From contig CALCLY010000036.1 in NCBI GenBank assembly GCA_937966555.1, positions 122,116 through 186,115 of the forward strand: 64,000 bases of DNA, given 5' to 3'. The DNA is from an uncultured Clostridia bacterium (lineage in GTDB: Bacteria > Bacillota > Clostridia > UMGS1883 > UMGS1540). The position numbers and the translations under genes were made by a program. The notes beneath the pieces were generated by a model, which worked only from the letters and a program-made list of their open reading frames with translations, made no database searches and was not told the DNA's origin. Positions 25,470 through 45,873 of the stretch are shown piece after piece (within the stretch, counting starts at the first letter, position 1; every line of letters begins with the position of its first letter).

Positions 25470-28400
25470 TTATTTTAGGTTTTCCAGCACACGCATAAAT
25501 ACCGCGGCTGCCTGCGCTCTTGTCGTATTGGCCTTTGGTGCAAAGCTCCCATCCGTATTACCTGTCATAATGGACTTTTCCGCCGCCCATGTTACAGCGT
25601 CCTTCGCATAGTCTGAAATGTCGCTGTTGTCCATATAGGCTGTGCTGCCGCTTGTCGTTATATCATATCCCTTGAATGTTGCATAGCGATAGATCATTAC
25701 TACCATCTGCTCTCTGGTTATATTATCATTCGGAGCAAATTGATTTTCGGAAATTCCGAAGATTATACCGTTATTGCTTGCCCACGCAACAGCCTTTTCA
25801 TAATAGCTTCCGCTTTCTATGTCAATAAAGGCGGCTGCAGCTGTCTGCGGCTCATTTTCCATTCTGTAAAGAATTGTAACAAACATTGCCCTTGTAATAT
25901 CGCTTTGGGGTGCAAATTCCGTATTTGATACGCCTTTCATCAGACCGTTTTCGTATGCGTATTTCACCGAATCATAAAACCAGTCGTTTTTGTGAATGTC
26001 TGTAAACGGATTTTCCCATTCTGTCGGTTTTGGTGGGTCAACCGGATCAACAGGCTTTTCGTTTTCGTTCCACTTTGCATAAAGCGTAAAGTCCTTTGTA
26101 ACCTTGCTTGCAAAATCATATTTTGCAGTCAATTTTTCATCTGTGTACCAGCCGTCAAAGGTAAAACCTTCTTTTGCAGGAGCAGTCGGCTCTTTAACAA
26201 CACTATTTTTTGTTACGGAAGATGATGTAATTGCGTTTCCGCCGTTTGTTTCAAACTTAACTGTGTAGCGTGTTGTTCCGCCGCCGCCACCGCCGCCGCC
26301 ACCGCCGCCGGACGAATTAACAGTAAAGCGGATTGTCTTATCAATCGTGGTCAAATTGGTGGCTGTTACACGAACTGTTGCGGTGTAAGTGCCTGCGGCC
26401 AAGCCTGTGTTGGGCTTGATGGTGAAAGTTGTGGTGCCGGATGTTGCCAGATTCGTATTAAAACCCGTCTTATCCAGCGTGAAGCTGTCGGCATTGGCTC
26501 CGGTCAGGGTCACATCCAGAGAAGCAAGAGCACCGGTGCCGGTATTGGTGATCGTAAAGGTCTCTGCGGTCTGCTCGCCGTAGCCTACGGTCCGTGCAGC
26601 AAAAGTTTTACCGTCCGGTGTGACTGTTGCCGTATAAGTCAGGGGCACATCGTCTGCCGGGACGGTGACCGTAGTGGTTGCACCTGCAAAGTGTGTATCA
26701 GTTTCCGCTATGCGGACATAGTAGGTGCCTGCGGTAAGTCCGGTGATCTCGGTGCCGGAGCATACAGTACCTGCGGGGCTGGCAAAGTTAGAGTCGGTGC
26801 TGTACTCCATAGCTGTGGTTGTACCGGTTATCTTACCGTCGGAGCCGCCCAAAGTGGTGGGATTCACTCCGTTCAAACCGGTAGGAGCACCGGGACTGTC
26901 AGCCTTTTTAACCGCAGCGGTTGCGGCGCTGGTAAGTGTGCCGGTTTCCTCGCTGCTGGAAATCTCCACGGTGATGGTCGAGCCGATGTCGGCCTTAACC
27001 AGCGTGTAGGTGCTGTTCATTGCGCCGGAGATGTCGGAGCCATCACGCTTCCACTGATAGGACAGCGTGCCGGTATTATTGCCGCTTTCAAGAGATGCTG
27101 TCAGGGTCTGACCGAACTTAGCCGTACCGGTGATCGTGGCTGTGCCGGTCAGGGCGGGGTTCTCCGTCCAGCGCGCGTAATATTCGCTACTTGAATCTGT
27201 ATAAACTGTGTCCAGACTCAACAAAGTGCCGCCGCTTTCTGCTGTATACCACCCGGCAAAGATGTAGTGCTCTTTTGTCGGTGTCGGCACCTGTTCCGCG
27301 GTCAACTTGCCGTCCGTACCGGTAACAAGTTCCACACGATAACTTTCATCTCCGATTTTTCCGCCCTGCGTATAGAAGCCAACGATATATTTTGTAACGC
27401 CGCCGAGAGGACTCATAGAAAACGGAACGCCGTAAGAATATTTCACTTCGTCTATCGTATAGTTAGTATACACAACCCCCGGGTTATTGCCTCCCAAGGT
27501 GACATCTGTTTCATTCAGCTCTGCCAGTGCCAACCCGTCCTGTGCCTTGAAGTATATCCACAGAGTGTATTTAATCCCCGAAATGAACTGTGCAGAAAGC
27601 TTTGTTGCGTCAGAATAACTTCCGCCGGAGTCTGAGTATTGCCACTTATACGTGAATTCTACACCCGCCGTATTGCAGGTGACAACCGCATCCGCAACAT
27701 TTTCTCCCTCCGTATATCCGGTATAGGAAAATGAAACGCTGTCAATCGCTCCCCACAAGGCATATACCGTGGTTGCCTCGCTGAAAACCGTTGTCTCCGT
27801 TATCTTCATTCCTCCGCTTGCTGCGGTATACCATCCGTCGAAGGTGTAGCCCTCCCTTGTCGGAACCGGAAGTGATGCCAATTTACCTTTATCCGCCGCC
27901 GGTATCGTTATTGTATCCGTATCCTTGCCGTTTACCTTGCCGCCGTTTGCATCAAATGTTACATCAATGTCAACGGCGGGCACCCAGCGCGCGTAAAATT
28001 GGTTTCTTGGATCTGTATAAACTGTGTCCAGACTCAACAAAGTGCCGCCGCTTTCTGCTGTATACCACCCGGCAAAGATGTAGTGCTCTTTTGTCGGTGT
28101 CGGCACCTGTTCCGCGGTCAACTTGCCGTCCGTACCGGTAACAAGTTCCACACGATAACTTTCATCTCCGATTTTTCCGCCCTGCGTATAGAAGCCAACG
28201 ATATATTTTGTAACGCCGCCGAGAGGACTCATAGAAAACGGAACGCCGTAAGAATATTTCACTTCGTCTATCGTATAGTTAGTATACACAACCCCCGGGT
28301 TATTGCCTCCCAAGGTGACATCTGTTTCATTCAGCTCTGCCAGTGCCAACCCGTCCTGTGCCTTGAAGTATATCCACAGAGTGTATTTAATCCCCGAAAT

Positions 28401-28664
28401 GAACTGTGCAGAAAGCTTTGTTGCGTCAGAATAACTTCCGCCGGAGTCTGAGTATTGCCACTTATACGTGAATTCTACACCCGCCGTATTGCAGGTGACA
28501 ACCGCATCCGCAACATTTTCTCCCTCCGTATATCCGGTATAGGAAAATGAAACTGCTTCTATCTCTGTTCCCGCCGCACTCGCCGTCACGCCCATGGCGG
28601 GCACGAGGGAAAGCAGCATTGCCAGTGTCAGTAAAACAGAAAAAAATTGTCTTGTCTTTTTCAC
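25470..28664 (-). CDS. Large S-layer-homology (SLH) anchored surface protein with duplicated ~272-aa modules, Flg_new (Listeria-Bacteroides) repeats and a poly-Gly linker.
   Basis: Three C-terminal SLH domains begin at FTDIHKNDWFYDSVKYAYENG, FIDIESGSYYEKAVAWASNNG and YMDNSDISDYAKDAVTWAAEKS. The true start is GTG at 28664 (RBS AAAGGAGGAT 8 nt upstream), giving the signal peptide MKKTRQFFSVLLTLAMLLSLVPAMGVTASA. Confidence 0.85.
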   Translation of the reverse strand: MKKTRQFFSVLLTLAMLLSLVPAMGVTASAAGTEIEAVSFSYTGYTEGENVADAVVTCNTAGVEFTYKWQYSDSGGSYSDATKLSAQFISGIKYTLWIYFKAQDGLALAELNETDVTLGGNNPGVVYTNYTIDEVKYSYGVPFSMSPLGGVTKYIVGFYTQGGKIGDESYRVELVTGTDGKLTAEQVPTPTKEHYIFAGWYTAESGGTLLSLDTVYTDPRNQFYARWVPAVDIDVTFDANGGKVNGKDTDTITIPAADKGKLASLPVPTREGYTFDGWYTAASGGMKITETTVFSEATTVYALWGAIDSVSFSYTGYTEGENVADAVVTCNTAGVEFTYKWQYSDSGGSYSDATKLSAQFISGIKYTLWIYFKAQDGLALAELNETDVTLGGNNPGVVYTNYTIDEVKYSYGVPFSMSPLGGVTKYIVGFYTQGGKIGDESYRVELVTGTDGKLTAEQVPTPTKEHYIFAGWYTAESGGTLLSLDTVYTDSSSEYYARWTENPALTGTATITGTAKFGQTLTASLESGNNTGTLSYQWKRDGSDISGAMNSTYTLVKADIGSTITVEISSSEETGTLTSAATAAVKKADSPGAPTGLNGVNPTTLGGSDGKITGTTTAMEYSTDSNFASPAGTVCSGTEITGLTAGTYYVRIAETDTHFAGATTTVTVPADDVPLTYTATVTPDGKTFAARTVGYGEQTAETFTITNTGTGALASLDVTLTGANADSFTLDKTGFNTNLATSGTTTFTIKPNTGLAAGTYTATVRVTATNLTTIDKTIRFTVNSSGGGGGGGGGGGTTRYTVKFETNGGNAITSSSVTKNSVVKEPTAPAKEGFTFDGWYTDEKLTAKYDFASKVTKDFTLYAKWNENEKPVDPVDPPKPTEWENPFTDIHKNDWFYDSVKYAYENGLMKGVSNTEFAPQSDITRAMFVTILYRMENEPQTAAAAFIDIESGSYYEKAVAWASNNGIIFGISENQFAPNDNITREQMVVMIYRYATFKGYDITTSGSTAYMDNSDISDYAKDAVTWAAEKSIMTGNTDGSFAPKANTTRAQAAAVFMRVLENLK
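26279..26311. repeat. GGC/GGT triplet-repeat tract encoding an 11-residue poly-Gly linker in the SLH protein.
   Basis: ccgccgccaccgccgccgccaccgccgccgg, which is codon GCC/ACC read on the minus strand. It is in-frame slippage-prone. Confidence 0.6.
27195..28553. repeat. Perfect tandem direct duplication inside the SLH gene: 543-bp identical blocks at 27195-27737 and 28011-28553, with a period of 816 bp.
   Basis: Identical 122-aa alternative-frame ORFs (27267..27635 and 27999..28451) and identical DNA were read at an offset of 816 bp. Confidence 0.8.
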
Positions 28665-28692
28665 ATTTATATCCTCCTTTTGATGTGATGTT

Positions 28693-29280
28693 CTACTTGC
28701 CTCCGATATTCCGGCTTGAAATTGCATTACCGCAATACTCGCATTTGCCGGAGCTTCCGGCGCGAATTCTTGTTGTTCCGCTGCATTTTTCACACACAAT
28801 GTTAACAAAGCTTGTTTTACTGCCTTCTCTGCCCGAAAGAATCACGCAGGGCATGCCCTGCTTTTGCAGAGTGCAGTCACAGAATACTCCTTTGCCGAAA
28901 AGCTTCTCAAGCTCGGAAAGTACCTTGAACGGCGGTTTCCCCGATTGCTTTGCAAGCTCGTCAATTGTCACCATGCCGTCAGCATCACACATAAAGATTG
29001 AGTTGTAGCGATATGCAAGACCTGCCCTTCTGCCGTTTTTAATCCCGTTTAACAAAAGCAATCCGGACGGAACAACCATGACTATATTGGTAATCAAGTT
29101 ATCGCGAAGCTCTTCGTTATACCCGGTAACCCCGGAAATAATTCCAAACAGAAAAACCGCCGTGAAGAATCCGCCTATAATCATTTGTATGTGCTTTTTT
29201 AATGTAAGCCTTGCAATTGCCACTTTTGAAATATATGTTCCGCCACCCGAAAAGATTGTTTGATTCGTCTTCATTTTCAC
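28693..29280 (-). CDS. Membrane protein (2-3 TM) with a C-terminal CxxC...CxxC zinc ribbon.
   Basis: 195 aa with C-terminal CEKCSGTTRIRAGSSGKCEYCG. It lies 29 bp upstream of the SLH gene start. Confidence 0.5.
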   Translation of the reverse strand: MKMKTNQTIFSGGGTYISKVAIARLTLKKHIQMIIGGFFTAVFLFGIISGVTGYNEELRDNLITNIVMVVPSGLLLLNGIKNGRRAGLAYRYNSIFMCDADGMVTIDELAKQSGKPPFKVLSELEKLFGKGVFCDCTLQKQGMPCVILSGREGSKTSFVNIVCEKCSGTTRIRAGSSGKCEYCGNAISSRNIGGK

Positions 29281-30125
29281 TGCCTCCGAAATGCCATCAT
29301 TCCCACTCCGATGATTGCAAGCAATATACCGGTTACTATGCCGAAAATCGAGCCGCCGCGCACTCCTTTTTTGTTCTCCCCGGCAAATTCTTCTGCTGTC
29401 ATAATTCCCTTAACGGTTGTAACCGAATCCACATCCTCGGCTTCTATCAGGGTATCGCCTTTTTGTACGCCGACAATCGTATATTCGAGCGGATCGTCGG
29501 GCGAAACGATGCCGTAGGATATTTTTTGAGATCCGTATCCCGTCGATGAGTACATACCTGTTGATTTTTTCGGCAGCCAATTTTCTTTTGAAACGCAGTA
29601 GCTGCTTTCTCTTCCGCCCGAAAGCACCTTCCAGCCCGCATTGAGGCTCTTCTCGTCATATTGCGTAAATTCGGTGTTTCTTATAAGCGGATTGAGCAGC
29701 TTGCTTTCCACCTTAAATTCTCCGAGTAGGGTAGGTGCGGCGAGCATGGTTGATGTAAGTATCTCGGCGTTTATTCCAAAATTCGCCTTTTCGCTGTAGT
29801 CTGTATTCTCCGGATACCAGTCCCACACTTTTTCATCACCGCTGCCGGTATCCTGTTTATAAGTCCAAACCGTTCTTTTCGCCGTTACTCCGGGAAGCTT
29901 AACGCCCGTTATGGGATCCTGAAGCTGTTCGGCAGGTTTAAGAGTTCCCGAAACAACCACAAGCTTTCCCTCGTTTTCGGGAGTAAGCTTGCCGTCTTTA
30001 ATCGTTGGCGCAGCTTTGATTTTCTCATAGGACTGCGGTGCTGACACAAGAGCTTTTATGGCAAGCGAAGCAAAGAGCAAGCCTCCTATAATCAGTATAA
30101 CGCCGATTATTTTTTTCATAGTCAT
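29277..30125 (-). CDS. Bitopic membrane protein with N- and C-terminal TM helices and a large extracytoplasmic domain.
   Basis: 282 aa. Its stop overlaps the downstream start by 4 bp. Confidence 0.5.
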   Translation of the reverse strand: MTMKKIIGVILIIGGLLFASLAIKALVSAPQSYEKIKAAPTIKDGKLTPENEGKLVVVSGTLKPAEQLQDPITGVKLPGVTAKRTVWTYKQDTGSGDEKVWDWYPENTDYSEKANFGINAEILTSTMLAAPTLLGEFKVESKLLNPLIRNTEFTQYDEKSLNAGWKVLSGGRESSYCVSKENWLPKKSTGMYSSTGYGSQKISYGIVSPDDPLEYTIVGVQKGDTLIEAEDVDSVTTVKGIMTAEEFAGENKKGVRGGSIFGIVTGILLAIIGVGMMAFRRQ

Positions 30126-30140
30126 TCCTCCGTTCTGTAG

Positions 30141-31313
30141 CTATTCAAGCTTATTCGCCTGATTTTTATATTCGTCCTGTATAAATTTCGCGTCCTTGTC
30201 GCTAAGTGCGTTTATAACCGTGCCGAGTGCGTCAAACTGCGCTCTTGTGCAGTGCACCGCAACAGGTTTGCAGGCATATCCGCGCGTCATACGTCCTAAA
30301 TTTTCGTTTTTTACAAGTCCGAGCATAACTTCATAAAGCTCATCCGTATTGAAATAGGTTGCTTTTGCCTTCCATGCGTCATAGTTCTCCTCGGATTTGT
30401 TGATAAAGCTTGTTACGGCTGCCCATGCGGGAACTTTGTCGCTGCCCGGTGTGGTTTTAAAGTAGTCCATCGTGGCTCTGTATGCCGCCTCGCTTGTGTT
30501 TTCGTGTGACGGATAATCATACCACAGCCAAACAAGACCTTTTACACCGCTTGAATGAAGGTCTGCGTCAGCCTCGTTTTTCAGCATTTCCGAGATAGGC
30601 GCAACCACCCTGTCATCACCGAGGAGACCGGCATACTCATACGCTGCCTTCCGAACATCGTTATCCGAATCTTTCATCAGCTCGATTTCCGCATCAACCG
30701 CTCCGTTAAGAGTCTTGTTCCATGTGCTTCCGAGAGCAACCGCCGCCTGCCTTCTTACAACTGCGTTTTCATTCTTTGCCGCATCAAGCAGGAATTTGCC
30801 GATTTCTGCATCCTTGCCGCCTTCATTTCCAAGAGCTTTTACCGCACATTTAATAACATAAGGCTCTTTTTCGGTTTTCAGAATCTCCTTTGCCGACGCT
30901 TTATGCGAATCACTTACCCCGAAAAATGTGGCGATGTTTGAAAAAGCATAGCCTCTTACCTGCGGTGCATCGCTTTTTAAAAGAGGCTCAACAAATTCCT
31001 TTGCCGCAGGGAGTGTTGCCTTGTTATCCTTAAGCTTTTTGATTGCTTTGTCTGTTATATTTTCATCAAGCTCAAGCTTATTGTTGATTGTTGCATATGA
31101 ATATGTGGAAGCAAGATTTACAAATTCGTCCAAGGTTATATTCTGCTCATCTTTAATAAACTCTTTTATCAGATCGTCCTCTGTCATATTTGCGTAGTCA
31201 ATCTTTTTGGTTTCCTGCTTTGTTTCGGTTTCTTTTCCGGTATTTTCACCGCCGCACGCAGCGAGCGAAAATACCATTCCTACAGCTAAAATGAACGCTA
31301 ATATTTTTTTCAT
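30141..31313 (-). CDS. Lipoprotein with HEAT-like (PBS-lyase-type) repeats.
   Basis: Lipobox LAACGG after the signal peptide. Repeats resemble PQVRGYAFSNIA, VRRQAAVALGS and NDVRKAAYEYAG. Confidence 0.55.
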   Translation of the reverse strand: MKKILAFILAVGMVFSLAACGGENTGKETETKQETKKIDYANMTEDDLIKEFIKDEQNITLDEFVNLASTYSYATINNKLELDENITDKAIKKLKDNKATLPAAKEFVEPLLKSDAPQVRGYAFSNIATFFGVSDSHKASAKEILKTEKEPYVIKCAVKALGNEGGKDAEIGKFLLDAAKNENAVVRRQAAVALGSTWNKTLNGAVDAEIELMKDSDNDVRKAAYEYAGLLGDDRVVAPISEMLKNEADADLHSSGVKGLVWLWYDYPSHENTSEAAYRATMDYFKTTPGSDKVPAWAAVTSFINKSEENYDAWKAKATYFNTDELYEVMLGLVKNENLGRMTRGYACKPVAVHCTRAQFDALGTVINALSDKDAKFIQDEYKNQANKLE

Positions 31314-31337
31314 AATATAAAATTCCTCCTGATTCTT

Positions 31338-32663: not shown

Positions 32664-32687
32664 AATTCTGTTCTCCTCTCAAAATTT

Positions 32688-33236
32688 TTATTCTTTATAG
32701 TCTGTTATATCCCATATATCGGGTGTACATATCAGCCTGCCGTTTTCATCCGTATCAAGCGTGATTTTGTGTCCGCCGCGTATGACGATATAAATTTCAA
32801 CATTGCCGCCGCAGTTTATTATATACGGTGTGCCGTCATCTGCTTTTTGCAAATTTTTCTTATCGCCGTTTTGAATCAGCTCGTTTTCCTCTCCGTACCG
32901 CGGAATAACAAGATACCATTTTTCTCCGCCGTAATCATAATGACTGATTGCCCGGCGTTTTTCCTCGGAAAGCTCCGAAAAAAGCTTTTCTATATATTCA
33001 TTTGCCGTATTTTTGCCGGTTTCTCCCTCTCCGAGATATGCGACCGCCCAATAGGGATAGTCCTCGATTTCATCGAACGGAAGAGTATTTGCGTATTCTG
33101 TACGATGCTCACTGTCAACATACACCATGCCCGGTCCGTCCAGTATAAAAGGGTTTTCTCCGGGAGCCCTGCATCCGAAAAGACCGGCAATAACCGTAAA
33201 TATCGCAATTGCTTTCATCAGCCTTACCTTAATCAC
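32688..33236 (-). CDS. Putative lipoprotein (182 aa).
   Basis: Signal peptide plus Cys (IAGLFGCRAPG). Confidence 0.5.
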   Translation of the reverse strand: MIKVRLMKAIAIFTVIAGLFGCRAPGENPFILDGPGMVYVDSEHRTEYANTLPFDEIEDYPYWAVAYLGEGETGKNTANEYIEKLFSELSEEKRRAISHYDYGGEKWYLVIPRYGEENELIQNGDKKNLQKADDGTPYIINCGGNVEIYIVIRGGHKITLDTDENGRLICTPDIWDITDYKE

Positions 33237-34426: not shown

Positions 34427-34432
34427 CTCCCG

Positions 34433-35302: not shown

Positions 35303-35320
35303 TTTTCAACCTCCAATGAT

Positions 35321-36100: not shown

Positions 36101-36113
36101 GCCTGCCGCCTCC

Positions 36114-37193: not shown

Positions 37194-37263
37194 TGTTTCC
37201 CTCCTTTTTGCCCGGCCGCTCCCCGTGTCCGTTTTCGGGCAGGGGAGCGGCTGACACTTTTGC

Positions 37264-37653: not shown

Positions 37654-37712
37654 ACCGAACCTCCTTTAAAAAATATTTATATCTGTTTTTTCAAAAAGAT
37701 ATGACAAACGTG

Positions 37713-40700
37713 TTATTCCACCGTTACGACATCGCAGAGCGGCTGCATACCTTGGCTTTCGTGTCCCCAGAGCATAAGCTTGTAAACGTATCCGTCGCCG
37801 GGAGTGCCTTTTAAATAGTAATCCTCCCGATTAACATATTTTATAAGGTAATTTACAAGATTTCCGTTTGCGTCATACTTGGCGCTGTGAAGCCTTGCGC
37901 TGCTGTCAGGTGCAAAGCCGATTACGGTGTTAAGCTCTTTGTTGTAGCTGATAAAGGCTGCGTCCTCCGGCGCAATCAGCGCATACCATGCGTTCGGCAC
38001 ATCGCCGGGGTCTGACATGACATACGACAAATCGCTGCTGTTTTTTGCTCCTACGACTTTCATGGGAGAATATTCGCTTTGCGTAAACATCTGCGTAAAT
38101 GCCTTAAAGCTTGTGCCGTTGTAATTTCCCCAATAAATTTCCGTTATGCCGTAAGCAAGCATCGTTTTGCCGTCAAACGCGGTTTTGCAGTCCCTCACGC
38201 TCAGCTTTTCGGCAAGATTTTCGATTTTCGTGGCTTTTATGCCCTTGTCATACGTCAGCTTGCCCGCACCATTGATTGTGAGTGTTCCGCTGCCGTAAAA
38301 AGAAACCTTGCCTCCGCACAGAATACCCACGGCATCTATAGTGTCCGCTTCGATGATACTGTTTCCCATAAGCTCTATGTCAAGGTCGCCGTTTGCATAA
38401 ATTCCGACAGATTCCGCCGTGGCGTAAATCGGATGCGTATCAATATGCGCATTGTTCAGCGTCAGCTTTGCGGGAGACATTGATGTTTCCGGAGTAAAGC
38501 TTACCGCTCCTCCAAACAGCGCCTCGGCATTGTCCTGCGTGATGCTTTCGCCACCCACCGTTATTATAGGTTCGGCAAATACCGCATAAAGCGAAAGCCC
38601 CATAGGTACGAAAACCTCATCTCCCGGCAGATAATCCACCGTTTTGCCGTTTCTGTCGACAGTCCAGCCCAAAAAGCTGTATCCGTTTTTTATCGGACGA
38701 ACATTGGGCAGAATTACTTTATTATACATTTTCATCCGTATGGTTTTATACGGCTGGCTGCCGGCTTCTCTTTTATCGAACAGGAAGAGAACCGTGCTGC
38801 TCTGCATATCGCTTTTTGTAAACGAATTGACAGCAGACGGCTGATATCCGCACTTGGCGCAGGTTTTGCGATACAGCCCGTCTACGGTGTCGGTTGCTTC
38901 TCTTAAAAGCTCATATTTGTAGATGTGTTCTTCGTCCTTCTTGTACGTCACGGTATTTCCGCTCTCATCCTCGTAGCTGCAGCGGCTGCATATAAGGCTG
39001 TGGTTTGTACCGTCCTTCGGGGTGCACGAATCAAATATATGCCTTACAGAGTGACTGACAAGGTTGCCGTTTACCCCTTTTGTAACTTCTTCGCCGTTTA
39101 CCTTTACAACGCATCTGTATGTTTCGCTTTCCGGCATCCTGTTTGTTATGACAAATCCCGGCGTCTCATAGCCGACAAACATGCCGACGCCTACCCCATA
39201 ATCAACAAGCTGTTTTATGCTGATAAACGCCGAATCCTGTTTAAGCTGCCAGTCATATGTAACCGTTGCCCCCTCGGGCGCGCACACCTTGATGTGGAAT
39301 GCGGCGCTCCTGTCACACTCCGTAACAACCTTGTCTGTAAGGTTTTCGATAAAGGGCGCGGTTTCCGTTCTCCCGATATGCACCGGAAGATATTTGCTCT
39401 CGTCGCCCGACGTCACCGTCAGCGTAAAGCTTTTTTCCTCCGTTGCCGCGGACGGGTAAACGCCGGTGATATAACGATTGCCTGTGATTGAAAGCCCGTA
39501 AGCTGCAAATTCCGCATCGCCCGTCACCGTATAGCTGTCGGCACAGCTTATATAATTTTTCAAATCAACATTGATGGAAGATCCCGAAACACCTGCCGGA
39601 ATTTCGACGGGCTTCAGGTTATATACTTTAAACTCCGAAGCTTCCGCGCAAGTATATTCACGTCCGATGTATATGTCCCTTGAAGGCTTGGAAAGATGAT
39701 TCTCAACGGAGACATCGTTTATATACAGCTTTGTTTCCGCCGTAAACCAGGCGTCACCCGTGGCTTTTTCATAGGCGCCGTATTCGTATACGGTATTTTC
39801 GGTATATTCCTCCAATAAGCTGTATTCGGCTTCTCCCGCAAACAGCGCGTTTTGTGCCTCATTGTCCGAAATAATATTCCCGTCATCGTCTTCATAACTC
39901 TGCATTACGGTATACTCCGATGTTCCGAGAGGATAAAAAACGGGTTTTCTGCCCGGCATCGGCTCGATATTGTAAAGCCGCAGCTCTTTTATTATCGGCT
40001 TCCATTGCGCGTAGATTGTCGTATCCTTATTATATACCCTGCCGAGGTCAACCCGTTCGCCGCCTTCGGGCTCGGTATACCAACCCTCAAGATAAAACCC
40101 TTCTCTGTTGATAACGGTGTGGTCATAATGTAAACTCATAATCGTTCCGTCAATCCCCGTCTGCATCTCAAGCGTTGCGGCGCCGGCAGCGCCCACAAAG
40201 CTGCCGCCGTTTGTGTCAAGCGTTATCGTGTTTGGCTTCGGACTTTTGATTGTGTATTCGAACGTAACGCTCGGTTTGTTCACTCCCACGGTGCTTTTTC
40301 TTATCGCTCTCGGCGGCGCGCCGTCCGTCAGCAGTATCTGAGTATTCCGACTCATGCCGAAGCCTTCCTCAAAATCAAACGTCACCGTCAGCGTGCAGCG
40401 GGTTGTGTTTTTAAAACTCGTTGCATTGACATAGCTTTTTTTAATGGGGTCATATACCTTCCATTTAATCCCCCATATGCTGTAAGGTCTGCCGGCAGAC
40501 ACCTTTACCGCCTGCGTCAGCTCCTCTACCGAGCTGTTTGGCCCGGGCTGCTGCACGCCCATAAGCTCAAGCGAATCCAAATAATTCTTCCTAACTCCTT
40601 CGGTGCACAGATTTTTTGTTTTTATATACAGATACCCGGCATAATAGTCTATGTTTTCTTGCGGCACAGGCTCATCGTCAATATAAAACGCGGTACTGCT

Positions 40701-41033
40701 GTTTACCACATAATTTCCGTTTTTGATGATCACTTTAAAACGGTAATAATACTCTGTGCCGCTGTCAAACGGGTCATAATTTGAACTCAGCTTTGCATCG
40801 TCGCAAGCCCTGTACCACTTTCCCTCATCAATCTTTAATATCTCGTCGGAACCGGGACAGGTTAATTTAACAGGCGCTGCTTTGACGCCTTTCTTAATGC
40901 TTACCTCGCTCATCCCCTCAAACCTCACTTCGGGTATAACGGTTTGAGCCGCAAGCGTTGTCTGCGGCAAAACGCCCAAAAGCACTGCCGCGCAAAGAAC
41001 AGCCGAAAAAAGCCTGCCCTTTTTTATTTTCAT
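37713..41033 (-). CDS. Large secreted protein (1106 aa) with Flg_new-type repeats. Function unknown.
   Basis: The start is trimmed to MKIKKGRLFSAVLCAAVLLGVLPQTTLAAQT (RBS GGAGCT). Flg_new repeats read LEGWYTEPEGGERVDLGRVYNKDTTIYAQW and LGWTVDRNGKTVDYLPGDEVF. Confidence 0.7.
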   Translation of the reverse strand: MKIKKGRLFSAVLCAAVLLGVLPQTTLAAQTVIPEVRFEGMSEVSIKKGVKAAPVKLTCPGSDEILKIDEGKWYRACDDAKLSSNYDPFDSGTEYYYRFKVIIKNGNYVVNSSTAFYIDDEPVPQENIDYYAGYLYIKTKNLCTEGVRKNYLDSLELMGVQQPGPNSSVEELTQAVKVSAGRPYSIWGIKWKVYDPIKKSYVNATSFKNTTRCTLTVTFDFEEGFGMSRNTQILLTDGAPPRAIRKSTVGVNKPSVTFEYTIKSPKPNTITLDTNGGSFVGAAGAATLEMQTGIDGTIMSLHYDHTVINREGFYLEGWYTEPEGGERVDLGRVYNKDTTIYAQWKPIIKELRLYNIEPMPGRKPVFYPLGTSEYTVMQSYEDDDGNIISDNEAQNALFAGEAEYSLLEEYTENTVYEYGAYEKATGDAWFTAETKLYINDVSVENHLSKPSRDIYIGREYTCAEASEFKVYNLKPVEIPAGVSGSSINVDLKNYISCADSYTVTGDAEFAAYGLSITGNRYITGVYPSAATEEKSFTLTVTSGDESKYLPVHIGRTETAPFIENLTDKVVTECDRSAAFHIKVCAPEGATVTYDWQLKQDSAFISIKQLVDYGVGVGMFVGYETPGFVITNRMPESETYRCVVKVNGEEVTKGVNGNLVSHSVRHIFDSCTPKDGTNHSLICSRCSYEDESGNTVTYKKDEEHIYKYELLREATDTVDGLYRKTCAKCGYQPSAVNSFTKSDMQSSTVLFLFDKREAGSQPYKTIRMKMYNKVILPNVRPIKNGYSFLGWTVDRNGKTVDYLPGDEVFVPMGLSLYAVFAEPIITVGGESITQDNAEALFGGAVSFTPETSMSPAKLTLNNAHIDTHPIYATAESVGIYANGDLDIELMGNSIIEADTIDAVGILCGGKVSFYGSGTLTINGAGKLTYDKGIKATKIENLAEKLSVRDCKTAFDGKTMLAYGITEIYWGNYNGTSFKAFTQMFTQSEYSPMKVVGAKNSSDLSYVMSDPGDVPNAWYALIAPEDAAFISYNKELNTVIGFAPDSSARLHSAKYDANGNLVNYLIKYVNREDYYLKGTPGDGYVYKLMLWGHESQGMQPLCDVVTVE

Positions 41034-41154
41034 ACAATTCAGCTCCTTTTTTCTTTCGGCGCGCGGCAGCTGCCGCGCTCCTACTGCTTTTTTTATGATT
41101 GTTTCTCCGTCGGCCGGGCCGCAAAATGCCGTAAGCCCGACTTGCATATTGGTT

Positions 41155-44100
41155 TTATGAGCCTGTTATTTTCAGTCTTGCCGAAGGCAAAAGAGGTTTT
41201 ATGTTCTTGTCATAGTTAAACATAAACGCTCTTATCTCATCCGCATCCGAAATATTCAGCTCAAGGGTGCCGACGGAAGCGTCGAGTACCGGCATATCCA
41301 TTTGGCGGATAAATTCTCTTTTTATGTCAATCATCCGTCCGTTTTTGTAGCTTGCTATCCAAATATAGGCAGAGAGTCCGCCGTTGGAAGCGTGGATGCA
41401 ATACTCACCGTTTTTCTCGAACAGCTGCAAGACAGGTTTTTCGGTAAGCTTCGGAAGCGTTACATCCTCTTCGTAAAGGCATACGGAGCAGACATGATGG
41501 CCGATTCCTTCCTCGGTCAAAGTCGGTTTTTTGGGAAATACCATCTGATTGTAGCGGTGAGGAATCACGCGGAGCTTTTCGGAGCAGTCCGGACTCTCGC
41601 ATTCCAGCCAGTGACTTGTTTCGTCGTGCTCATATGAACTGTTGACAAAGGAACAGACATGCGTCAACGCTGCTATCGGCGCGGTTTGTTCGTTCCAGCA
41701 GCCGGCTTGCGAGCAGATGCGTTTCTTAAGGCCCGGCGCAGCTGCTGTCGGTGCCGTAACGGTCACCCAGTCGCTGTATGTATGGCGAACATAGGAGTTG
41801 TCGGAACGTCCGCAAGCTTCGTCGGAGCAAGTATTCCAGTGCGCAATGTTGTCATGCGCCACCACGGTGAAGCTGTGCGTATGCGGTGCGGAAAGCTTGG
41901 GAATGCTCTGCTTCTGCCTTGTTAAGCCGCAGTCGGCACAGTAATAGGTCTGCTCGCCCTCGGCGTCAACCGTAGGCTCCTTGGTGGTTTTCCAATAACC
42001 CGGTGTGTGCGACTGCAAATAAAATTCTTCGTAACAGTTTTTGCACAGTACCATATGTCTGTCTGTCCGACTGCCTGTATATGCCACACTATTTCTGTAC
42101 TCATAAGACGAGGTGTCATGCTGAGGAATAATGCGAATCGGATTGGACTGCGCCGTGCCGCCGTCGCCGGTAACAACGCAGACAAACATGAATTCATCCT
42201 CATATCGCAAAACCTCGCCGCACATGGCGTCATACAGCCCAACGGTCAGCGTATCGGTTTTTGTGCCCGCATGACCGTTTTCGGGGTGTTCCTCTATGTC
42301 GGGAACTTTATACAACTTAACATCTCCGTTGGCATCGTAATAAGCGTTGTACCACTGATAAGTAAGATTGTTGCCGCGCGCCTTGACCGAAAGCTTTACG
42401 AAGTTGTCGTCGCGTCCGTGTCTGTAGGTCGGCTTTATTTCGGCAGGCGACTGCCATGTGATGCGCACGGGGCGGATCCTTCCGCAGGCAACGCAGGAGT
42501 CGCCGTGGCGCCAGTCGTGTGCGCCGATATTCACGCGCTTGCCGCCGTCGGGGCAATCAGAATTGGAGCAGATCTTCCAATGCTGCGTTTCGTTCATCTG
42601 CCACTCATCCGTTTCGTGCGGCAGGTTGATAAAGAACCGCACGTCGCTGTTGTAGTATGCCTCATAATTTCCAAGCTCGTTATGTGCGCGCAGGATAAAT
42701 TCGTATCTGCCGCACTGACCGTACAAGTGCTTGAACAGACGTTGGCACTGCGGCTCCTGTAAATCCAAAATAACGCTGTCTTTGGTATAGGTTACCAGCT
42801 GCTGGGCATACATATTCCAAAACGGCGTGCTCTGCTGCGGATTTATCTTCATCCCCGTTTCGGGGTCGATAATCGACATCTTTACATTTTCGCCGCATAG
42901 CAGCGTATATGGAATTACCAGTTTTTCACCGAATATCGCCGTAAATTCGTCCGCAGCGTAATATTTTTCTTTGCCGTTGACATATGTAACGTAGTCCCAT
43001 TCAAGATCTTTGCCGCCGACCGTATCAATTGCCGGCGCGGCAATTTTCTTATAATAACAGTTCAAAGCGCCGCAGGCATAGGGGTTCTTCGAGAAATCGT
43101 GCGTTGTTTTTGTGCTGGCTTTTACATCGCCGCAAAGGCTGCATTGCCTCCAGTGATGCGTTGCGTTATACGCCAGCACTTCACTGCCTTCGCACGTTCC
43201 GTTTACGCAGGCGGACGAAACACTGCTTGTTTTTCTCAAAAAGTATCCGCAGTCAAGGCAGTTGGAATGTATGATTGCAATAGGTTTTCCGAAAACTTCG
43301 GAAAAGTTTTCACGAACCCATTCTCCGAATCTGTGTCTGTTTTGGTTCATCGCCATACCGCAAATGGTACAGGTCTGATAATGTCTGTTGACGTCCCCCT
43401 GTACATAGGTGCTTCCCGGCGTATGCGTATGTGCGCCGTGGGAGCATTTCGAGAAGCAGGTTCCGTGCGATGTGCAATAGTGGTCGACCCATTTCGGGTC
43501 GCTCGGACATATGTCGTTTCCGCAGGAGCAGGGCGTTGCCGCCTTGCAGCAGACAAGGCACTTGCCGCAGTATTGGCACATCTCGCCGGGCGCAAAGCAC
43601 TTATTGCACGTTTTGCAGAAATGCTTGCTCCAGCCCGAGGAGCCCGGGCAAACGTGTGTATGCGTGCATTGCTCCTCCTCGCGCATCTGATTGCAGCAGC
43701 CGGCACAGCCGCCGCAGATGTTACACAAAACCTCTACACAGCCGCCGTGTTCCTCGCAGTAATGGCTTCTCCATTCGCTTCCTTCTATACATATGCCGTG
43801 TTCGCAGCCCAGAAAATCTGCGTTGCTTAAACAGCAATTCAGACAGTAGCCGCAGTCAGGGCAAAACTCATTATCCTCAAAACAGTTGCCGCAGTTGCCG
43901 CAGCGGTGGGTATCCGCGTCCCACTCCGTGCTTTCAACGCATATGCCGTGGTCGCAGCCATTCCTCTGACTTTCGTTAAGGCAGCACTCTGCGCAAAGGC
44001 TGCAGTCATCACACATCTCATCTTCTTCAAAGCAGTTTTCGCAGGATTGGCAGCGGTGAGAATAATCGTCCCAGTCGCTGCTTTCCACGCATATATCGTG

Positions 44101-45135
44101 GTAGCAGCCGTTTTCTTCGCTGGTTCTGCGGCAGCATTCCTCGCATTTTTCGCATTCGTAGCAGAAATTTTCGCACGAGCTGCAGTAATCTCCGCAATCA
44201 GAGCAAAGTATGTAGCCTTCGTAGTTACACTGATTACAGTTTTCACAAATCCACTCCCAGCACTTGTCGCAGTGATCCCCGTCCTCGCAGCGTCTGCCAT
44301 ATTCTTCGGGGCAAGCGCCGCAGTTGGGGCAAATATCGCTCGGCTCCCAGTCGCAGCAAAAGCCGCAGCTGCCGCAGCTTTGGCAGATTCTGTCGTCTTT
44401 TTCGGCGCAATTTTCGCACATTTCGCAGGTATCGTGGTATTCATATGCACAGCTGTTACATTCCGTACAGTGATCATCCAGCCAGCAATCCCTACACCTA
44501 TCGCATTCCCGGCAGATGACGCCGTCCGTAACACAGTTGTTGCACTTTTCGCAACCTTTACAGAAATCGTCCTCCGATTTACATTGGTTGCAGGCTGACA
44601 AACAATCCTGGCAAACGATTTCCAGACAGCAGCCGAGAGTTGCGCGGCAGGTCTTGCACATATCCTCCTCCTCAAACCCTCCGCTCCCGTAAAGGCAGGT
44701 CAGACACTCGTCGCAGTACGGGCACATGGCGCCGTTCGTCCGGCGGCAGTCTTCGCATACATTACAGCCGCTGCAAATGTCTCTGCCGCATTCTCCGCAA
44801 TACCTGCAGTGGTCGTTTTCGCCGCATTCGATACAATTCCAGCATTCGGTGCAGTATTGGTTTTCGCTCAAATCGTTAAAGCATGCGCCGCAGCTGTGGC
44901 AATGAGTGATTTCAAAACAGTCGCTTCTGCAGTCCTCCGTACAGCGGCCGCAGTTTCCGCAGCAATAGCTGTCCCAATGATAGTGACCGCAGCTTCCGCA
45001 GTTCTGACCGTCGGAATAGTCTGCAAATGCCGTAAAGCTGAAAATGGCTGCTAAAAGGACAACGGCAAAAAGAATAACGGCAAAAAGAACAACGGCATGT
45101 TTCACATGATTTCTTTTCATAATCTTCATAATCAA
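41155..45135 (-). CDS. Giant cysteine-rich secreted/anchored protein (1326 aa). A ~550-aa N-terminal region is packed with CxxC/CxxCxxC(xxxC) clusters and ~50-aa GC-H-IC...W...H-C repeats. Then come HW-x2-C-x4-C motifs and Ig-like regions.
   Basis: N-terminal TM/signal HAVVLFAVILFAVVLLAAIFSFTAFA. The Cys clusters include CGNCGRCTEDC, CRYCGECGRDIC, CKGCEKCNNC and CRECDRCRDC. Four tandem ~50-aa repeats of the type NGC(Y/D)H(D/G)ICVES..W....H.C..C.NCF...E.C..C..C..CC are present. Confidence 0.75.
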   Translation of the reverse strand: MIMKIMKRNHVKHAVVLFAVILFAVVLLAAIFSFTAFADYSDGQNCGSCGHYHWDSYCCGNCGRCTEDCRSDCFEITHCHSCGACFNDLSENQYCTECWNCIECGENDHCRYCGECGRDICSGCNVCEDCRRTNGAMCPYCDECLTCLYGSGGFEEEDMCKTCRATLGCCLEIVCQDCLSACNQCKSEDDFCKGCEKCNNCVTDGVICRECDRCRDCWLDDHCTECNSCAYEYHDTCEMCENCAEKDDRICQSCGSCGFCCDWEPSDICPNCGACPEEYGRRCEDGDHCDKCWEWICENCNQCNYEGYILCSDCGDYCSSCENFCYECEKCEECCRRTSEENGCYHDICVESSDWDDYSHRCQSCENCFEEDEMCDDCSLCAECCLNESQRNGCDHGICVESTEWDADTHRCGNCGNCFEDNEFCPDCGYCLNCCLSNADFLGCEHGICIEGSEWRSHYCEEHGGCVEVLCNICGGCAGCCNQMREEEQCTHTHVCPGSSGWSKHFCKTCNKCFAPGEMCQYCGKCLVCCKAATPCSCGNDICPSDPKWVDHYCTSHGTCFSKCSHGAHTHTPGSTYVQGDVNRHYQTCTICGMAMNQNRHRFGEWVRENFSEVFGKPIAIIHSNCLDCGYFLRKTSSVSSACVNGTCEGSEVLAYNATHHWRQCSLCGDVKASTKTTHDFSKNPYACGALNCYYKKIAAPAIDTVGGKDLEWDYVTYVNGKEKYYAADEFTAIFGEKLVIPYTLLCGENVKMSIIDPETGMKINPQQSTPFWNMYAQQLVTYTKDSVILDLQEPQCQRLFKHLYGQCGRYEFILRAHNELGNYEAYYNSDVRFFINLPHETDEWQMNETQHWKICSNSDCPDGGKRVNIGAHDWRHGDSCVACGRIRPVRITWQSPAEIKPTYRHGRDDNFVKLSVKARGNNLTYQWYNAYYDANGDVKLYKVPDIEEHPENGHAGTKTDTLTVGLYDAMCGEVLRYEDEFMFVCVVTGDGGTAQSNPIRIIPQHDTSSYEYRNSVAYTGSRTDRHMVLCKNCYEEFYLQSHTPGYWKTTKEPTVDAEGEQTYYCADCGLTRQKQSIPKLSAPHTHSFTVVAHDNIAHWNTCSDEACGRSDNSYVRHTYSDWVTVTAPTAAAPGLKKRICSQAGCWNEQTAPIAALTHVCSFVNSSYEHDETSHWLECESPDCSEKLRVIPHRYNQMVFPKKPTLTEEGIGHHVCSVCLYEEDVTLPKLTEKPVLQLFEKNGEYCIHASNGGLSAYIWIASYKNGRMIDIKREFIRQMDMPVLDASVGTLELNISDADEIRAFMFNYDKNIKPLLPSARLKITGS

Positions 45136-45419
45136 ATCGCCTCTCTTTCATGAATTTGCTTTGCTCCGCACATGGGGCAATACTCCGCATCATTAGGGAG
45201 AACATTTTCACATTTGGTGCAGCAACGATGCTTTGCTCTGTAAATATCAAAAACTGTTTCCTCCGGCAGTTTTGTCTGACAAACTTTGCAAAACTTGTTT
45301 TTTGCAGCCTGCGCATTTCCGCAGCACGGGCAGATTTTAAACCTTTTCATATTTTGGGTGCCAAAACCGAAATGCTCCAAAACATCTTTTCTTAACGGTC
45401 TATATCTCGTCACTCTCAT
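45132..45419 (-). CDS. Small double zinc-ribbon protein.
   Basis: CPCCG...CKVC and CTKC...CPMCG. The start is trimmed to avoid a 56-nt overlap, so it is uncertain. Confidence 0.45.
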   Translation of the reverse strand: MRVTRYRPLRKDVLEHFGFGTQNMKRFKICPCCGNAQAAKNKFCKVCQTKLPEETVFDIYRAKHRCCTKCENVLPNDAEYCPMCGAKQIHEREAI

Positions 45420-45873
45420 CAGCTCCTCCATATAATAGTTTTTTGCCGCATACAAAGCAAATTATATCTCCGTTTTTTGCTTTTGCGCCGCAGTGCTTGC
45501 AATACTTTGCTTCTTCCTCAAGAGGAGCACAATTCACGCACATAAGCATATCCGGATTATATACAATCGAATCAACCCATCTGCCGCACAAGTGGCATAA
45601 ATTAAAATTTTTCTTGCCCTCCGCTTCCCATGCCGCCGAAAGCTCTGCCTCGAAATCGTCTGCATAATACTTTCCTGTGGTACAGACAAGCTTTCCCGAC
45701 AATTCACAGAAAAAGCTGTAACGGTTTCCGCCATGTGACGGAATAATTTTGTATGCAGCCGTTTTATGCTTCTCATTTATCATACGCCTCGCCTCCTCTC
45801 TGAAAAACTTATAAACCCGTTTCTTTTGCACAAACCTACGCAAATTATCCGCAAGCCGTTGACTAATTGCCAA
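45400..45873 (-). CDS. Zinc-ribbon protein (157 aa). It is the first gene of the co-directional envelope cluster.
   Basis: CHLCG...CVNC and CKHCG...CFVCG. Confidence 0.5.
   Translation of the reverse strand: MAISQRLADNLRRFVQKKRVYKFFREEARRMINEKHKTAAYKIIPSHGGNRYSFFCELSGKLVCTTGKYYADDFEAELSAAWEAEGKKNFNLCHLCGRWVDSIVYNPDMLMCVNCAPLEEEAKYCKHCGAKAKNGDIICFVCGKKLLYGGADESDEI

What the first reader, a model, noticed from the sequence alone, without database searches (positions are those of the whole stretch)
25470..45873. 20-kb co-directional 15-gene envelope cluster that merges a YdjG/YdjH/YdjI-like membrane-integrity module with giant surface proteins and seven zinc-ribbon proteins
All 15 genes are on the minus strand with 0-30-bp gaps or 4-bp overlaps, which suggests one or a few transcripts. 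The cluster contains a double-zinc-ribbon TM protein (36114..37193), a TPM-domain protein (35321..36100) and an SPFH/flotillin-like protein with four C-terminal zinc ribbons (31338..32663). Together these mirror the B. subtilis pspA-ydjGHI architecture, but without PspA.

Interleaved with them are SLH-, LRR- and Flg_new-containing surface proteins, a HEAT-repeat lipoprotein and the giant Cys-rich protein. Seven of the 15 products carry CxxC...CxxC ribbons. The arrangement points to an uncharacterized system that couples cell-surface protein display or metal handling to a membrane microdomain (SPFH) scaffold.
Basis: partly seen in the sequence, partly recalled or inferred. Interest (0 to 1): 0.7.

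Follow-up and report, generated by a model that had tools for sequence, protein, structure and literature searches.

The report
PspA-less SamGHI envelope operon, expanded
The cluster is built around true homologues of the Bacillus subtilis membrane-stress proteins YdjG/H/I (SamG/H/I), here without PspA; gut Oscillospiraceae have added about nine envelope and zinc-ribbon genes to this trio, while the three giant surface-protein genes are interchangeable cargo.

Summary
The SPFH protein has three zinc ribbons, not four, and two gaps are 59 and 70 nt.

The triad is homologous to B. subtilis YdjG, YdjH and YdjI over full length (BLASTP E = 1e-69, 6e-12, 5e-7) and has the same architectures. No PspA lies within ±10 kb in about 100 related loci, nor in the window.

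The 15 genes are not one conserved unit:
- The trio sits together in 59 of 65 informative species-level loci of Clostridia, mostly with nothing else.
- A backbone (g15, g14, g11, YdjG, TPM, DUF4428, SLH protein, lipoprotein, SPFH, ± HEAT, TMEM43-like, g02) recurs in at least 16-22 species. It recurs in two more distant lineages at the same chromosomal site, once with rearranged order.
- The Cys-rich giant and the 1144-aa Flg_new protein come and go independently between species. The 1112-aa Flg_new/SLH gene is a 3.2-kb strain-specific insertion.

Structure models suggest two candidate adaptors: DUF4428 zinc ribbon plus PH-like domain, and a two-TM winged-helix plus zinc-ribbon protein. Verdict: a new variant of a known system. 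Interest 0.45.

The parts
36114..37193 (-). g10: YdjG/SamG homologue. Two N-terminal zinc ribbons, a central domain and a C-terminal TM anchor.
   Evidence: BLASTP against B. subtilis-type YdjG: 32% identity over the full length, E = 1e-69. CxxC at 9, 25, 76, 94. TM at 340-358. Adjacent to the SPFH gene in 59 of 65 informative loci.
35321..36100 (-). g09: YdjH/SamH homologue. Signal/TM segment, extracytoplasmic TPM domain, second TM and a Gly-rich cytoplasmic tail.
   Evidence: Pfam TPM_phosphatase, E = 8e-21. BLASTP against YdjH: 24% identity over the full length, including the GGRGGSY/GSRGSF tail, E = 6e-12. TM at 4-22 and 170-188.
31338..32663 (-). g05: YdjI/SamI homologue. Soluble SPFH (Band_7_1) domain, a G/M/Q-rich linker and three Cys4 zinc ribbons.
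   Evidence: Pfam PF13421, E = 1.4e-17. B. subtilis YdjI is in the same family and also has a C-terminal ribbon. BLASTP against YdjI: E = 5e-7 across SPFH, linker and ribbon. No TM. 12 invariant Cys.
34433..35302 (-). g08: cytoplasmic DUF4428 zinc ribbon, PH-like beta domain and C-terminal helical bundle. Candidate peripheral-membrane adaptor. Backbone gene.
33233..34426 (-). g07: secreted LRR_5 + SLH wall-anchored protein. Backbone gene; the SLH slot is conserved but its occupant varies.
   Evidence: Pfam LRR_5 and SLH. Orthologues lie between TPM and SPFH in L035, L042 and L043 and after SPFH in L053; other SLH proteins are adjacent in L046, L054 and L058. L097/L100 carry two other SLH proteins at this position.
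32688..33236 (-). g06: small lipoprotein (LFGC lipobox) with no known family. Backbone gene directly upstream of SPFH.
   Evidence: No Pfam or NCBIfam match. Homologues directly upstream of SPFH in the EXT loci, in L097/L100 (38% identity) and in Ructibacterium L102 (59% identity).
30141..31313 (-). g04: HEAT-repeat lipoprotein. Present only in the window's clade.
   Evidence: Pfam HEAT_2, E = 1e-15. Lipobox LAAC at residue 17. Present in the EXT clade and L005 (77% identity); absent from L100 and L102.
29277..30125 (-). g03: TMEM43-like protein with N- and C-terminal TM segments and an extracytoplasmic middle.
   Evidence: Pfam TMEM43, 23.7 bits, just above the cut-off. TM at 9-27 and 260-278. 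89% identical in Ructibacterium, where it lies between TPM and DUF4428.
28693..29280 (-). g02: two-TM hairpin, cytoplasmic winged-helix domain and C4 zinc ribbon. Candidate membrane-tethered adaptor or regulator.
37264..37653 (-). g11: small four-TM membrane protein upstream of the YdjG homologue.
   Evidence: Four hydrophobic segments. No family match. Conserved upstream of YdjG in the EXT loci, L005 (72% identity) and L102 (62% identity).
45132..45455 (-). g14: small soluble double-zinc-ribbon protein (start uncertain). Backbone gene at the 5' end.
   Evidence: Pfam DZR, E = 2.7e-8. Homologues directly upstream of YdjG in L097/L100, and present in L017, L028, L029 and L031.
45400..45873 (-). 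g15: small soluble zinc-ribbon protein, first gene of the cluster (start uncertain).
   Evidence: Pfam DZR and Zn_ribbon_3. Homologues in L017, L022, L028, L029 and L097/L100 (46% identity).
41155..45135 (-). g13: giant Cys-rich (149 Cys) surface protein with an N-terminal signal anchor. Variable cargo.
   Evidence: No family match. Present in L001-4, L026, L028 and L029; absent in L005-7, L017, L031, L034 and L067. Only 144 representatives among 1.84 billion proteins.
37713..41147 (-). g12: 1144-aa Flg_new-containing surface protein. Variable cargo.
   Evidence: Pfam Flg_new. Present only in conspecific contigs L001-4 and in L031. Absent in L017 and L029, where g14 or g13 abuts g11 or g10.
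25470..28664 (-). g01: Flg_new x4 + SLH x3 surface protein. Strain-specific insertion, not part of the conserved cluster.
   Evidence: Conspecific contigs L001-L003 (97-99% nucleotide identity) align up to 25424 and resume at 28654, so 25425..28653 is extra in the window. Only weak domain-level hits elsewhere. Contains an internal 570-nt duplication at 99.1% identity.
45874..46235 (.). Divergent intergenic region between the cluster and the SBP_bac_8/GerE pair. Probable cluster promoter.
   Evidence: Promoter-like sites on the minus strand at 46075-46048 and 46172-46145 (consensus match only). The same SBP_bac_8 + GerE pair flanks the cluster start in L005, L097/L100 and L102.

Best explanation
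The core of the region is a PspA-less paralogue of the Bacillus subtilis YdjG/YdjH/YdjI (SamG/SamH/SamI) membrane-stress module.

Shown here:
- g10, g09 and g05 are full-length homologues of YdjG, YdjH and YdjI.
- The trio is the conserved unit across Clostridia.
- In one family-level group of gut Oscillospiraceae, a copy at a fixed chromosomal site next to a divergent SBP/GerE pair carries a recurring set of envelope and zinc-ribbon genes. These are two small zinc-ribbon proteins, a four-TM protein, a DUF4428 zinc ribbon/PH-like protein, an SLH wall protein, a small lipoprotein, and, depending on lineage, a HEAT lipoprotein, a TMEM43-like protein and a two-TM winged-helix/zinc-ribbon protein.
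- The giant surface-protein genes g13 and g12 vary between species. g01 is a strain-level insertion.

Inferred by analogy with B. subtilis:
- The tail-anchored SamG-like protein and the SamH-like protein, whose TPM domain faces the wall, form a membrane sensor.
- The soluble SPFH oligomer docks on them and restrains or scaffolds their activity.
- With no ESCRT-III/PspA effector in cis, the output probably runs through the cytoplasmic zinc-ribbon adaptors encoded alongside (g08, g02, g14, g15).
- The extracytoplasmic partners (SLH/LRR protein, lipoproteins, TMEM43-like protein) connect the module to the cell wall or S-layer.
For: Homology to YdjG/H/I:
- BLASTP E = 1e-69, 6e-12 and 5e-7, full-length, with matching architectures.
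- Same Pfam families as the B. subtilis proteins.
- Architectures match those described in PMC11237479.

Trio as the conserved unit:
- 59 of 65 informative species-representative loci have G and H next to I, in G-H-I or I-G-H order.

No PspA:
- phmmer with B. subtilis PspA at E <= 10 finds nothing in any locus (±10 kb) or in the 64-kb window.
- No PspA_IM30 appears in any Pfam-annotated context.

Backbone:
- 16 species-level loci, plus 6 short contigs, share the extended set.
- L097/L100 share g15-g14-G-H-SLH-DUF4428-...-g06-I and the same GerE/SBP flank.
- Cultured Ructibacterium gallinarum has the same gene content in a different order. This argues for selection on content rather than simple inheritance of order.

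Paralogy:
- Five MAGs carry both an extended and a minimal locus.

Independent associations:
- An SLH gene directly abuts the trio on the same strand in 7 of 47 minimal loci. A DUF4428 gene does so in 5.

Variable cargo:
-.

Adaptor folds:
-.

PspA-independent function of SamGHI as a sensor with an SPFH brake:
- bioRxiv 10.64898/2026.02.06.704340.
- Membrane recruitment network: PMC8581546.
Against: - Everything beyond homology and synteny is inferred. There are no expression, interaction or phenotype data for this lineage.
- PspA could be encoded elsewhere in the genome; I could not test this.
- Accessory content varies between lineages: HEAT only in one clade, DUF3298 or DUF6935 in others.
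- One variant (L025) has lost G, H, g07 and g06.
- One g08 homologue (L101) lies far from any triad.
- SLH genes are common in these genomes. The adjacency enrichment is modest (roughly 3-4 fold) and not phylogenetically independent.
- Winged-helix domains can bind protein as well as DNA.
- The 3' end of the cluster abuts a variable island (type I R-M, toxin-antitoxin genes). Some accretion could therefore be neutral.
Confidence: 0.6

Rival explanations
1. One reading: all 15 genes form one dedicated system that couples display of giant surface proteins, or metal handling, to an SPFH microdomain scaffold.
For: - Co-directional, tightly spaced genes with no clear internal terminators.
- Large SLH or Flg_new proteins recur at the edges of related clusters: L098 ends with a Flg_new+SLH gene, L100 with an SLH gene, and L005 has a 1911-aa SLH protein nearby.
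- In B. subtilis, loss of SamI blocks secretion of the surface protein BslA.
Against: - g01 is absent from conspecific contigs.
- g12 and g13 are independently present or absent between close species, and absent from most extended loci.
- Most species have the bare trio.
- No metal-transport or metallochaperone domain was found in any product.
- The BslA effect in B. subtilis is attributed to a global starvation-like state, not to direct secretion.
Confidence: 0.12
2. Only the trio is functional as a unit. The other genes are unrelated envelope genes that accumulated neutrally at a permissive insertion site and were inherited vertically.
For: - Content varies between lineages, and insertions or deletions are frequent: g01, g12, g13 and DUF6935 are each present in some contigs and absent from others.
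- The downstream flank is a variable island with R-M, toxin-antitoxin and recombinase genes.
- The extended loci in the top-80 set form one clade in the SPFH tree.
Against: - The same accessory families (g15, g14, g08, an SLH protein, g06) recur at 35-57% identity in a distant lineage.
- In Ructibacterium, g03 and g02 sit between H and I rather than after I, yet remain in the operon.
- DUF4428 and SLH genes have joined the trio independently in I-G-H-type loci.
- The narrowly distributed g02 family (119 proteins) was inside such a cluster in every locus examined.
- Gaps are mostly under 30 nt.
Confidence: 0.22
3. An anti-phage defence or surface-variation island, in which SPFH and zinc-ribbon proteins act in abortive infection and variable surface proteins alter phage receptors.
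For: - A type I R-M system and an ATPase_2/DUF234/Mrr_cat gene lie immediately downstream.
- Surface-protein cargo is hypervariable.
- DUF4428 occurs at the N-terminus of some SNIPE defence nucleases.
Against: - PADLOC finds no defence-family match apart from generic HEAT hits.
- No nuclease, ATPase or other effector domain is present in the backbone.
- The cluster start lies at a stable chromosomal site shared across lineages.
- The trio is orthologous to a characterised envelope-stress module.
Confidence: 0.04

Closest known systems
Bacillus subtilis pspA-ydjGHI (renamed pspA-samGHI) operon
   Same: - All three non-PspA proteins have full-length homologues here with the same architecture. 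YdjG has two zinc ribbons, a central domain and a C-terminal TM. YdjH has a signal/TM segment, a TPM domain, a TM and a Gly-rich tail. YdjI has a PF13421 SPFH domain, a G/M/Q-rich linker and a C-terminal zinc ribbon.
- Close relatives of the window keep the contiguous G-H-I order.
   Different: - No pspA in cis.
- In the window, three genes separate H from I.
- The SPFH protein has three ribbons instead of one.
- Up to nine further envelope or zinc-ribbon genes are co-oriented with the trio.
- The regulation cannot be the Bacillus sigma-W promoter and is unknown.
- The genome probably carries a second, minimal copy, as five related MAGs do.
PspA / band-7 / TPM / zinc-ribbon gene context of Firmicutes (Ravi et al. 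2024, PMC11237479)
   Same: Same domain triad and the same predicted sub-membrane assembly role.
   Different: That context was defined starting from PspA. In what I read of the paper, the section on PspA-free variants covers PspC and Toastrack contexts, not this triad. The PspA-free trio, its wide spread in Oscillospiraceae and Clostridia, and its expansion with SLH, DUF4428 and winged-helix proteins are not described there.
Classical bacterial SPFH operons (flotillin FloA/FloT with NfeD-type YqeZ/YuaF, HflK/C-FtsH, QmcA-YbbJ)
   Same: An SPFH scaffold encoded next to its membrane partner or partners. The proposed role is organising or restraining a membrane complex.
   Different: The SPFH protein here belongs to the Band_7_1 (YdjI) family and has no TM or hairpin. 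Its partners are zinc-ribbon and TPM proteins, not NfeD or FtsH. No NfeD domain was found in the cluster.
S-layer-associated (SLH) surface-protein gene clusters of Clostridia
   Same: SLH-anchored LRR_5 and Flg_new proteins with signal peptides, highly variable between strains.
   Different: Here the SLH gene sits inside an operon between the SamH and SamI homologues, and this slot is conserved while its occupant changes. No S-layer structural protein or secondary cell-wall polymer biosynthesis genes are in the window.

Membership tests
YdjGHI / SamGHI membrane-stress module | YdjG-type protein: two N-terminal zinc ribbons, conserved central domain, single C-terminal TM | tested here: met
   BLASTP against B. 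subtilis-type YdjG (L013): 32% identity over 356 columns, E = 1e-69. CxxC pairs and TM confirmed.
YdjGHI / SamGHI membrane-stress module | YdjH-type protein: signal/TM segment, TPM domain, TM and low-complexity tail | tested here: met
   Pfam TPM in both proteins. BLASTP: 24% identity end to end, E = 6e-12. Two hydrophobic segments.
YdjGHI / SamGHI membrane-stress module | YdjI-type protein: soluble PF13421 SPFH domain with a C-terminal zinc ribbon | tested here: met
   PF13421 in both proteins. BLASTP E = 5e-7 over SPFH, linker and ribbon. No TM. Three ribbons here against one in B. subtilis.
YdjGHI / SamGHI membrane-stress module | The three genes are contiguous in one operon | tested here: inconclusive
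   All are co-directional in the window, but H and I are separated by three genes. They are contiguous in 43 related loci. Operon status was not tested experimentally.
YdjGHI / SamGHI membrane-stress module | pspA as the first gene of the operon | tested here: not met
   phmmer with B. subtilis PspA at E <= 10 gives no hit in the window or in any locus. No PspA_IM30 in Pfam-annotated neighbourhoods. PspA elsewhere in the genome could not be checked.
YdjGHI / SamGHI membrane-stress module | SamG/SamH recruit SamI to the membrane, and SamI restrains SamGH signalling | not testable with these tools
   Known only from B. subtilis genetics, microscopy and two-hybrid work (PMC8581546; bioRxiv 10.64898/2026.02.06.704340).
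Psp (phage-shock) system | PspA/IM30 ESCRT-III-like effector present | tested here: not met
   No PspC, PspB or Toastrack domains in the Pfam results either.
Flotillin/NfeD-type SPFH operon | SPFH protein with a membrane anchor, paired with an NfeD-family partner | tested here: not met
   The SPFH protein has no hydrophobic segment. No NfeD domain in any of the 15 products.
Known anti-phage defence systems (PADLOC) | Match of cluster proteins to a defence-system model | tested here: not met
   Only generic HEAT hits for g04 and a non-significant hit for g10.

The most novel reading that the evidence does not exclude
The backbone is a kinase-free and sigma-factor-free trans-envelope signalling device. 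In this reading, wall-anchored SLH/LRR proteins and lipoproteins report the state of the wall or S-layer to the TPM domain of the SamH homologue. The SamG/SamH sensor is held in check by the SPFH oligomer. The signal leaves through zinc-ribbon contacts to a membrane-tethered winged-helix/zinc-ribbon protein (g02) and a zinc-ribbon/PH-like adaptor (g08). If so, these would be the first identified outputs of SamGHI-type signalling, which are unknown even in B. subtilis.
Probability: 0.15. Interest if true: 0.7.

Novelty: new variant of a known kind. Interest (0 to 1): 0.45.

Why it matters
SamGHI/YdjGHI has been studied only in B. subtilis, where its downstream output is unknown and PspA turns out to be dispensable for part of its function.

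The trio is widespread and PspA-free in gut Clostridia. One paralogue has recruited a recurring set of wall-facing proteins and cytoplasmic zinc-ribbon adaptors. That gives concrete candidate partners to test. A cultured host, Ructibacterium gallinarum, carries the cluster.

The result also marks the giant Cys-rich, Flg_new and SLH proteins as exchangeable cargo. They should be analysed separately, not as parts of the module.

Tried and rejected
- NCBIfam gave no informative names for ten of the proteins.
- PADLOC gave no defence match.
- Sequence searches of the PDB with the SPFH and YdjG-like proteins found nothing significant.
- Rfam found only three tRNAs and no leader RNA in the cluster.
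- Tandem Repeats Finder found nothing, because the g01 duplication has a period of 816 nt. The repeat finder and blastn did find it.
- The terminator and promoter scans were uninformative about operon structure.
- Clustering all neighbouring ORFs for a further universally conserved partner of the minimal trio found none. It found only occasional DUF6935, DUF4428 and SLH genes plus shadow ORFs.
- I considered horizontal acquisition because the cluster's GC is higher (0.44-0.52 against 0.37-0.42). I rejected it for the backbone. The locus is syntenic with the same SBP/GerE flank in three lineages. The highest GC is confined to the giant cargo genes. The low-GC flank is itself a mobile R-M island.
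- I considered a metal-handling role and rejected it. No transporter, chaperone or redox domain is present.

Full report
**Observation**

Fifteen ORFs lie head to tail on the minus strand between 25470 and 45873. I number them g01 (25470-28808) to g15 (45400-45873).

With the likeliest start codons, most junctions are 4-nt overlaps or gaps of 2-28 nt. The two exceptions flank the small membrane protein g11 (59 and 70 nt).

- Flg_new + SLH (g01)
- HEAT lipoprotein (g04)
- Band_7_1 SPFH (g05)
- LRR_5 + SLH (g07)
- DUF4428 (g08)
- TPM (g09)
- double zinc ribbon + TM (g10)
- Flg_new (g12)
- DZR (g14, g15)

g13 has 149 Cys and no family match.

Paired CxxC motifs occur in 7-8 of the 15 products but in about 1 of 35 other ORFs of the window (p about 1e-4). 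One detail is wrong: the SPFH protein has 12 invariant Cys that make three ribbons, not four. Terminator-like sites inside the cluster do not exceed the shuffle expectation, and no Rfam element is present.

**Is the triad YdjG/H/I?**

I recovered a B. subtilis-type pspA-ydjGHI locus by scanning metagenomes for the ydjG primer printed in PMC8581546. Direct BLASTP gives:
- g10 against YdjG: 32% identity over the full length, E = 1e-69.
- g09 against YdjH: 24% identity end to end, including the Gly-rich tail, E = 6e-12.
- g05 against YdjI: 22% identity through the SPFH domain, the G/M/Q-rich linker and a ribbon, E = 5e-7.

The Bacillus proteins fall in the same Pfam families. The architectures match those described by Ravi et al. 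(PMC11237479).

PspA is absent. A permissive phmmer search with B. subtilis PspA finds nothing in the 64-kb window or within ±10 kb in about 100 related loci. No annotated context shows PspA_IM30.

**How far is the arrangement conserved?**

A scan of one genome per species with an SPFH alignment returned 80 loci, all from Clostridia and mostly uncultured Oscillospiraceae. Their neighbourhoods were scored with phmmer:

| Arrangement | Loci |
|---|---|
| G-H-(x)-I | 24 |
| I-(x)-G-H | 19 |
| Extended gene set | 16 (plus 6 short contigs showing parts of it) |
| G only | 5 |
| SPFH truly alone | 1 |
| Uninformative | 9 |

The trio is therefore the conserved unit: 59 of 65 informative loci have it.

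Extended loci in this set form one clade nested among minimal trios in an SPFH tree. Five MAGs carry both an extended and a minimal locus. The window's cluster is thus an elaborated paralogue.

**What is backbone and what is cargo?**

- Conspecific contigs (97-99% nucleotide identity) lack 25425..28653, which is exactly g01. It is a strain-level insertion.
- g12 and g13 are independently present or absent between g14 and g11 in close species. L017 has neither, L029 has only g13 and L031 has only g12.
- A relative with 88% identical SPFH lacks g12-g15 and g03 but keeps g11-g10-g09-g08-g07-g05-g04-g02 and the same divergent SBP_bac_8/GerE flank.
- Searching from g08 revealed more distant versions. 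L097/L098/L100 (SPFH 57%, YdjG 73% identical) have g15-g14-G-H-SLH-SLH-DUF4428-x-x-DUF3298-g06-I-x-DUF6935-SLH next to the same GerE/SBP pair.
- L095/L099 have a different expansion around I-DUF4428-G-G-H.
- Cultured Ructibacterium gallinarum has g11-G-H-lipoprotein-SLH-g03-g02-g08-lipoprotein-g07-g06-I. The content is the same, but g03 and g02 have moved between H and I.
- Among minimal loci, an SLH gene directly abuts the trio on the same strand in 7 of 47, and a DUF4428 gene in 5.
- One g08 homologue lies away from any trio.

Content that survives rearrangement, together with independent recruitment of the same families, argues for a functional link of the backbone genes. The enrichment is modest, however, and it is not phylogenetically independent.

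**Accessory proteins**

- **Predicted topology.** g05, g08, g14, g15 and most of g10 are cytoplasmic. The TPM domain, g03, g04, g06 and g07 are outside.
- PADLOC, NCBIfam and PDB sequence searches add nothing.

**Mechanism**

In B. subtilis, YdjG and YdjH anchor YdjI, and through it PspA, at the membrane. A 2026 preprint recasts SamG/SamH as a stress sensor restrained by the SPFH protein SamI, with PspA dispensable for the developmental phenotype.

By homology, I propose the same sensor-plus-brake core here, without an ESCRT-III effector in cis. The output and clients would be supplied by the co-encoded zinc-ribbon adaptors and wall-facing proteins. Only the homology, the predicted topology and the synteny are shown here. 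The interactions and signalling are inferred.

**Verdict**

The region is a new variant of a known system: a PspA-less, duplicated and expanded SamGHI module.

It is not a 15-gene unit. The giant surface proteins are cargo, and nothing supports metal handling. The lead is useful to envelope-stress specialists because it names testable partners and a cultured host, but it is not startling. Interest 0.45.

Noticed in passing
window 27168-27737 and 27984-28553: g01 contains an internal direct duplication of 570 nt at 99.1% identity, spaced 816 nt apart. About 272 aa of the protein, including a Flg_new repeat, is present twice. It looks like a very recent tandem duplication.
   Followed up: partly
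window 25425-28653: The whole g01 gene is a 3.2-kb insertion relative to conspecific metagenome contigs (L001-L003), which have about 210 bp at this position. It lies at the junction between the cluster and a variable island.
   Followed up: yes
window 15050-25277: Downstream of the cluster lie a type I restriction-modification system (hsdR 15050-18082, hsdS 18086-20026, hsdM 20023-21795), an ATPase_2/DUF234/Mrr_cat gene (21821-23209) and small HTH genes. Other strains and species carry toxin-antitoxin genes, recombinases or glycoside hydrolases here, so this is a variable or mobile island.
   Followed up: partly
window 46236-49176 (+ strand): An SBP_bac_8 solute-binding protein and a 551-aa GerE/LuxR-type regulator are transcribed divergently from the cluster start. 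The same pair flanks the cluster in L005, L097/L100 and Ructibacterium L102. It may be the cluster's regulator; I did not test this.
   Followed up: partly
window 41155-45135 (g13): The giant protein has about four 50-aa Cys-rich repeats (C..C..C..CC type) after a signal anchor. Further on it has repeated H-W-x2-C...C...H mini-motifs that also occur in g12. Its N-terminal half has only 144 relatives among 1.84 billion representative proteins, mostly 1000-3600-aa proteins. Function unknown.
   Followed up: partly
L001, L003, L004 (about 11377-11865); also L026, L085, L095, L097 and others: A DUF6935 gene (about 160-200 aa) sits between the SPFH and HEAT genes in some conspecific contigs but is absent from the window. 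DUF6935 genes recur next to SamGHI-type loci in 12 of the 80 species loci and in both distant expanded types.
   Followed up: partly
L021/L030, L022/L035, L017/L045, L028/L056, L025/L062: Five MAGs carry two SamGHI-type loci, one extended and one minimal. The SPFH and YdjG of the minimal locus L030 are closer to the window's (85% and 76%) than those of the syntenic extended loci L100 and L102 (57-68% and 73-77%). This suggests recent duplication or recombination between paralogous loci; it is unresolved.
   Followed up: partly
L025 and L017: L025 keeps g11-g08-g05-g04-g03-g02 but has lost the YdjG, TPM, SLH and lipoprotein genes. L017 appears to lack most of the YdjG gene. Both genomes have a second, minimal trio that could supply these functions in trans.
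   Followed up: no
L008/L009, 11723-19893: A minimal G-H-I trio (SPFH about 80% identical by BLASTP; tblastn gave 76%) lies directly upstream of a polysaccharide cluster with Bac_transf, a pyruvyl-transferase-like gene (PS_pyruv_trans, weak hit), glycosyltransferases and Wzy. Pyruvylated wall polymers are the ligands of SLH domains. This may be coincidence.
   Followed up: no
window 14018-14109 and 59412-59619: Three tRNA-Ser genes (anticodons CGA, GCT, TGA). One lies next to the R-M island and could be an integration site.
   Followed up: no
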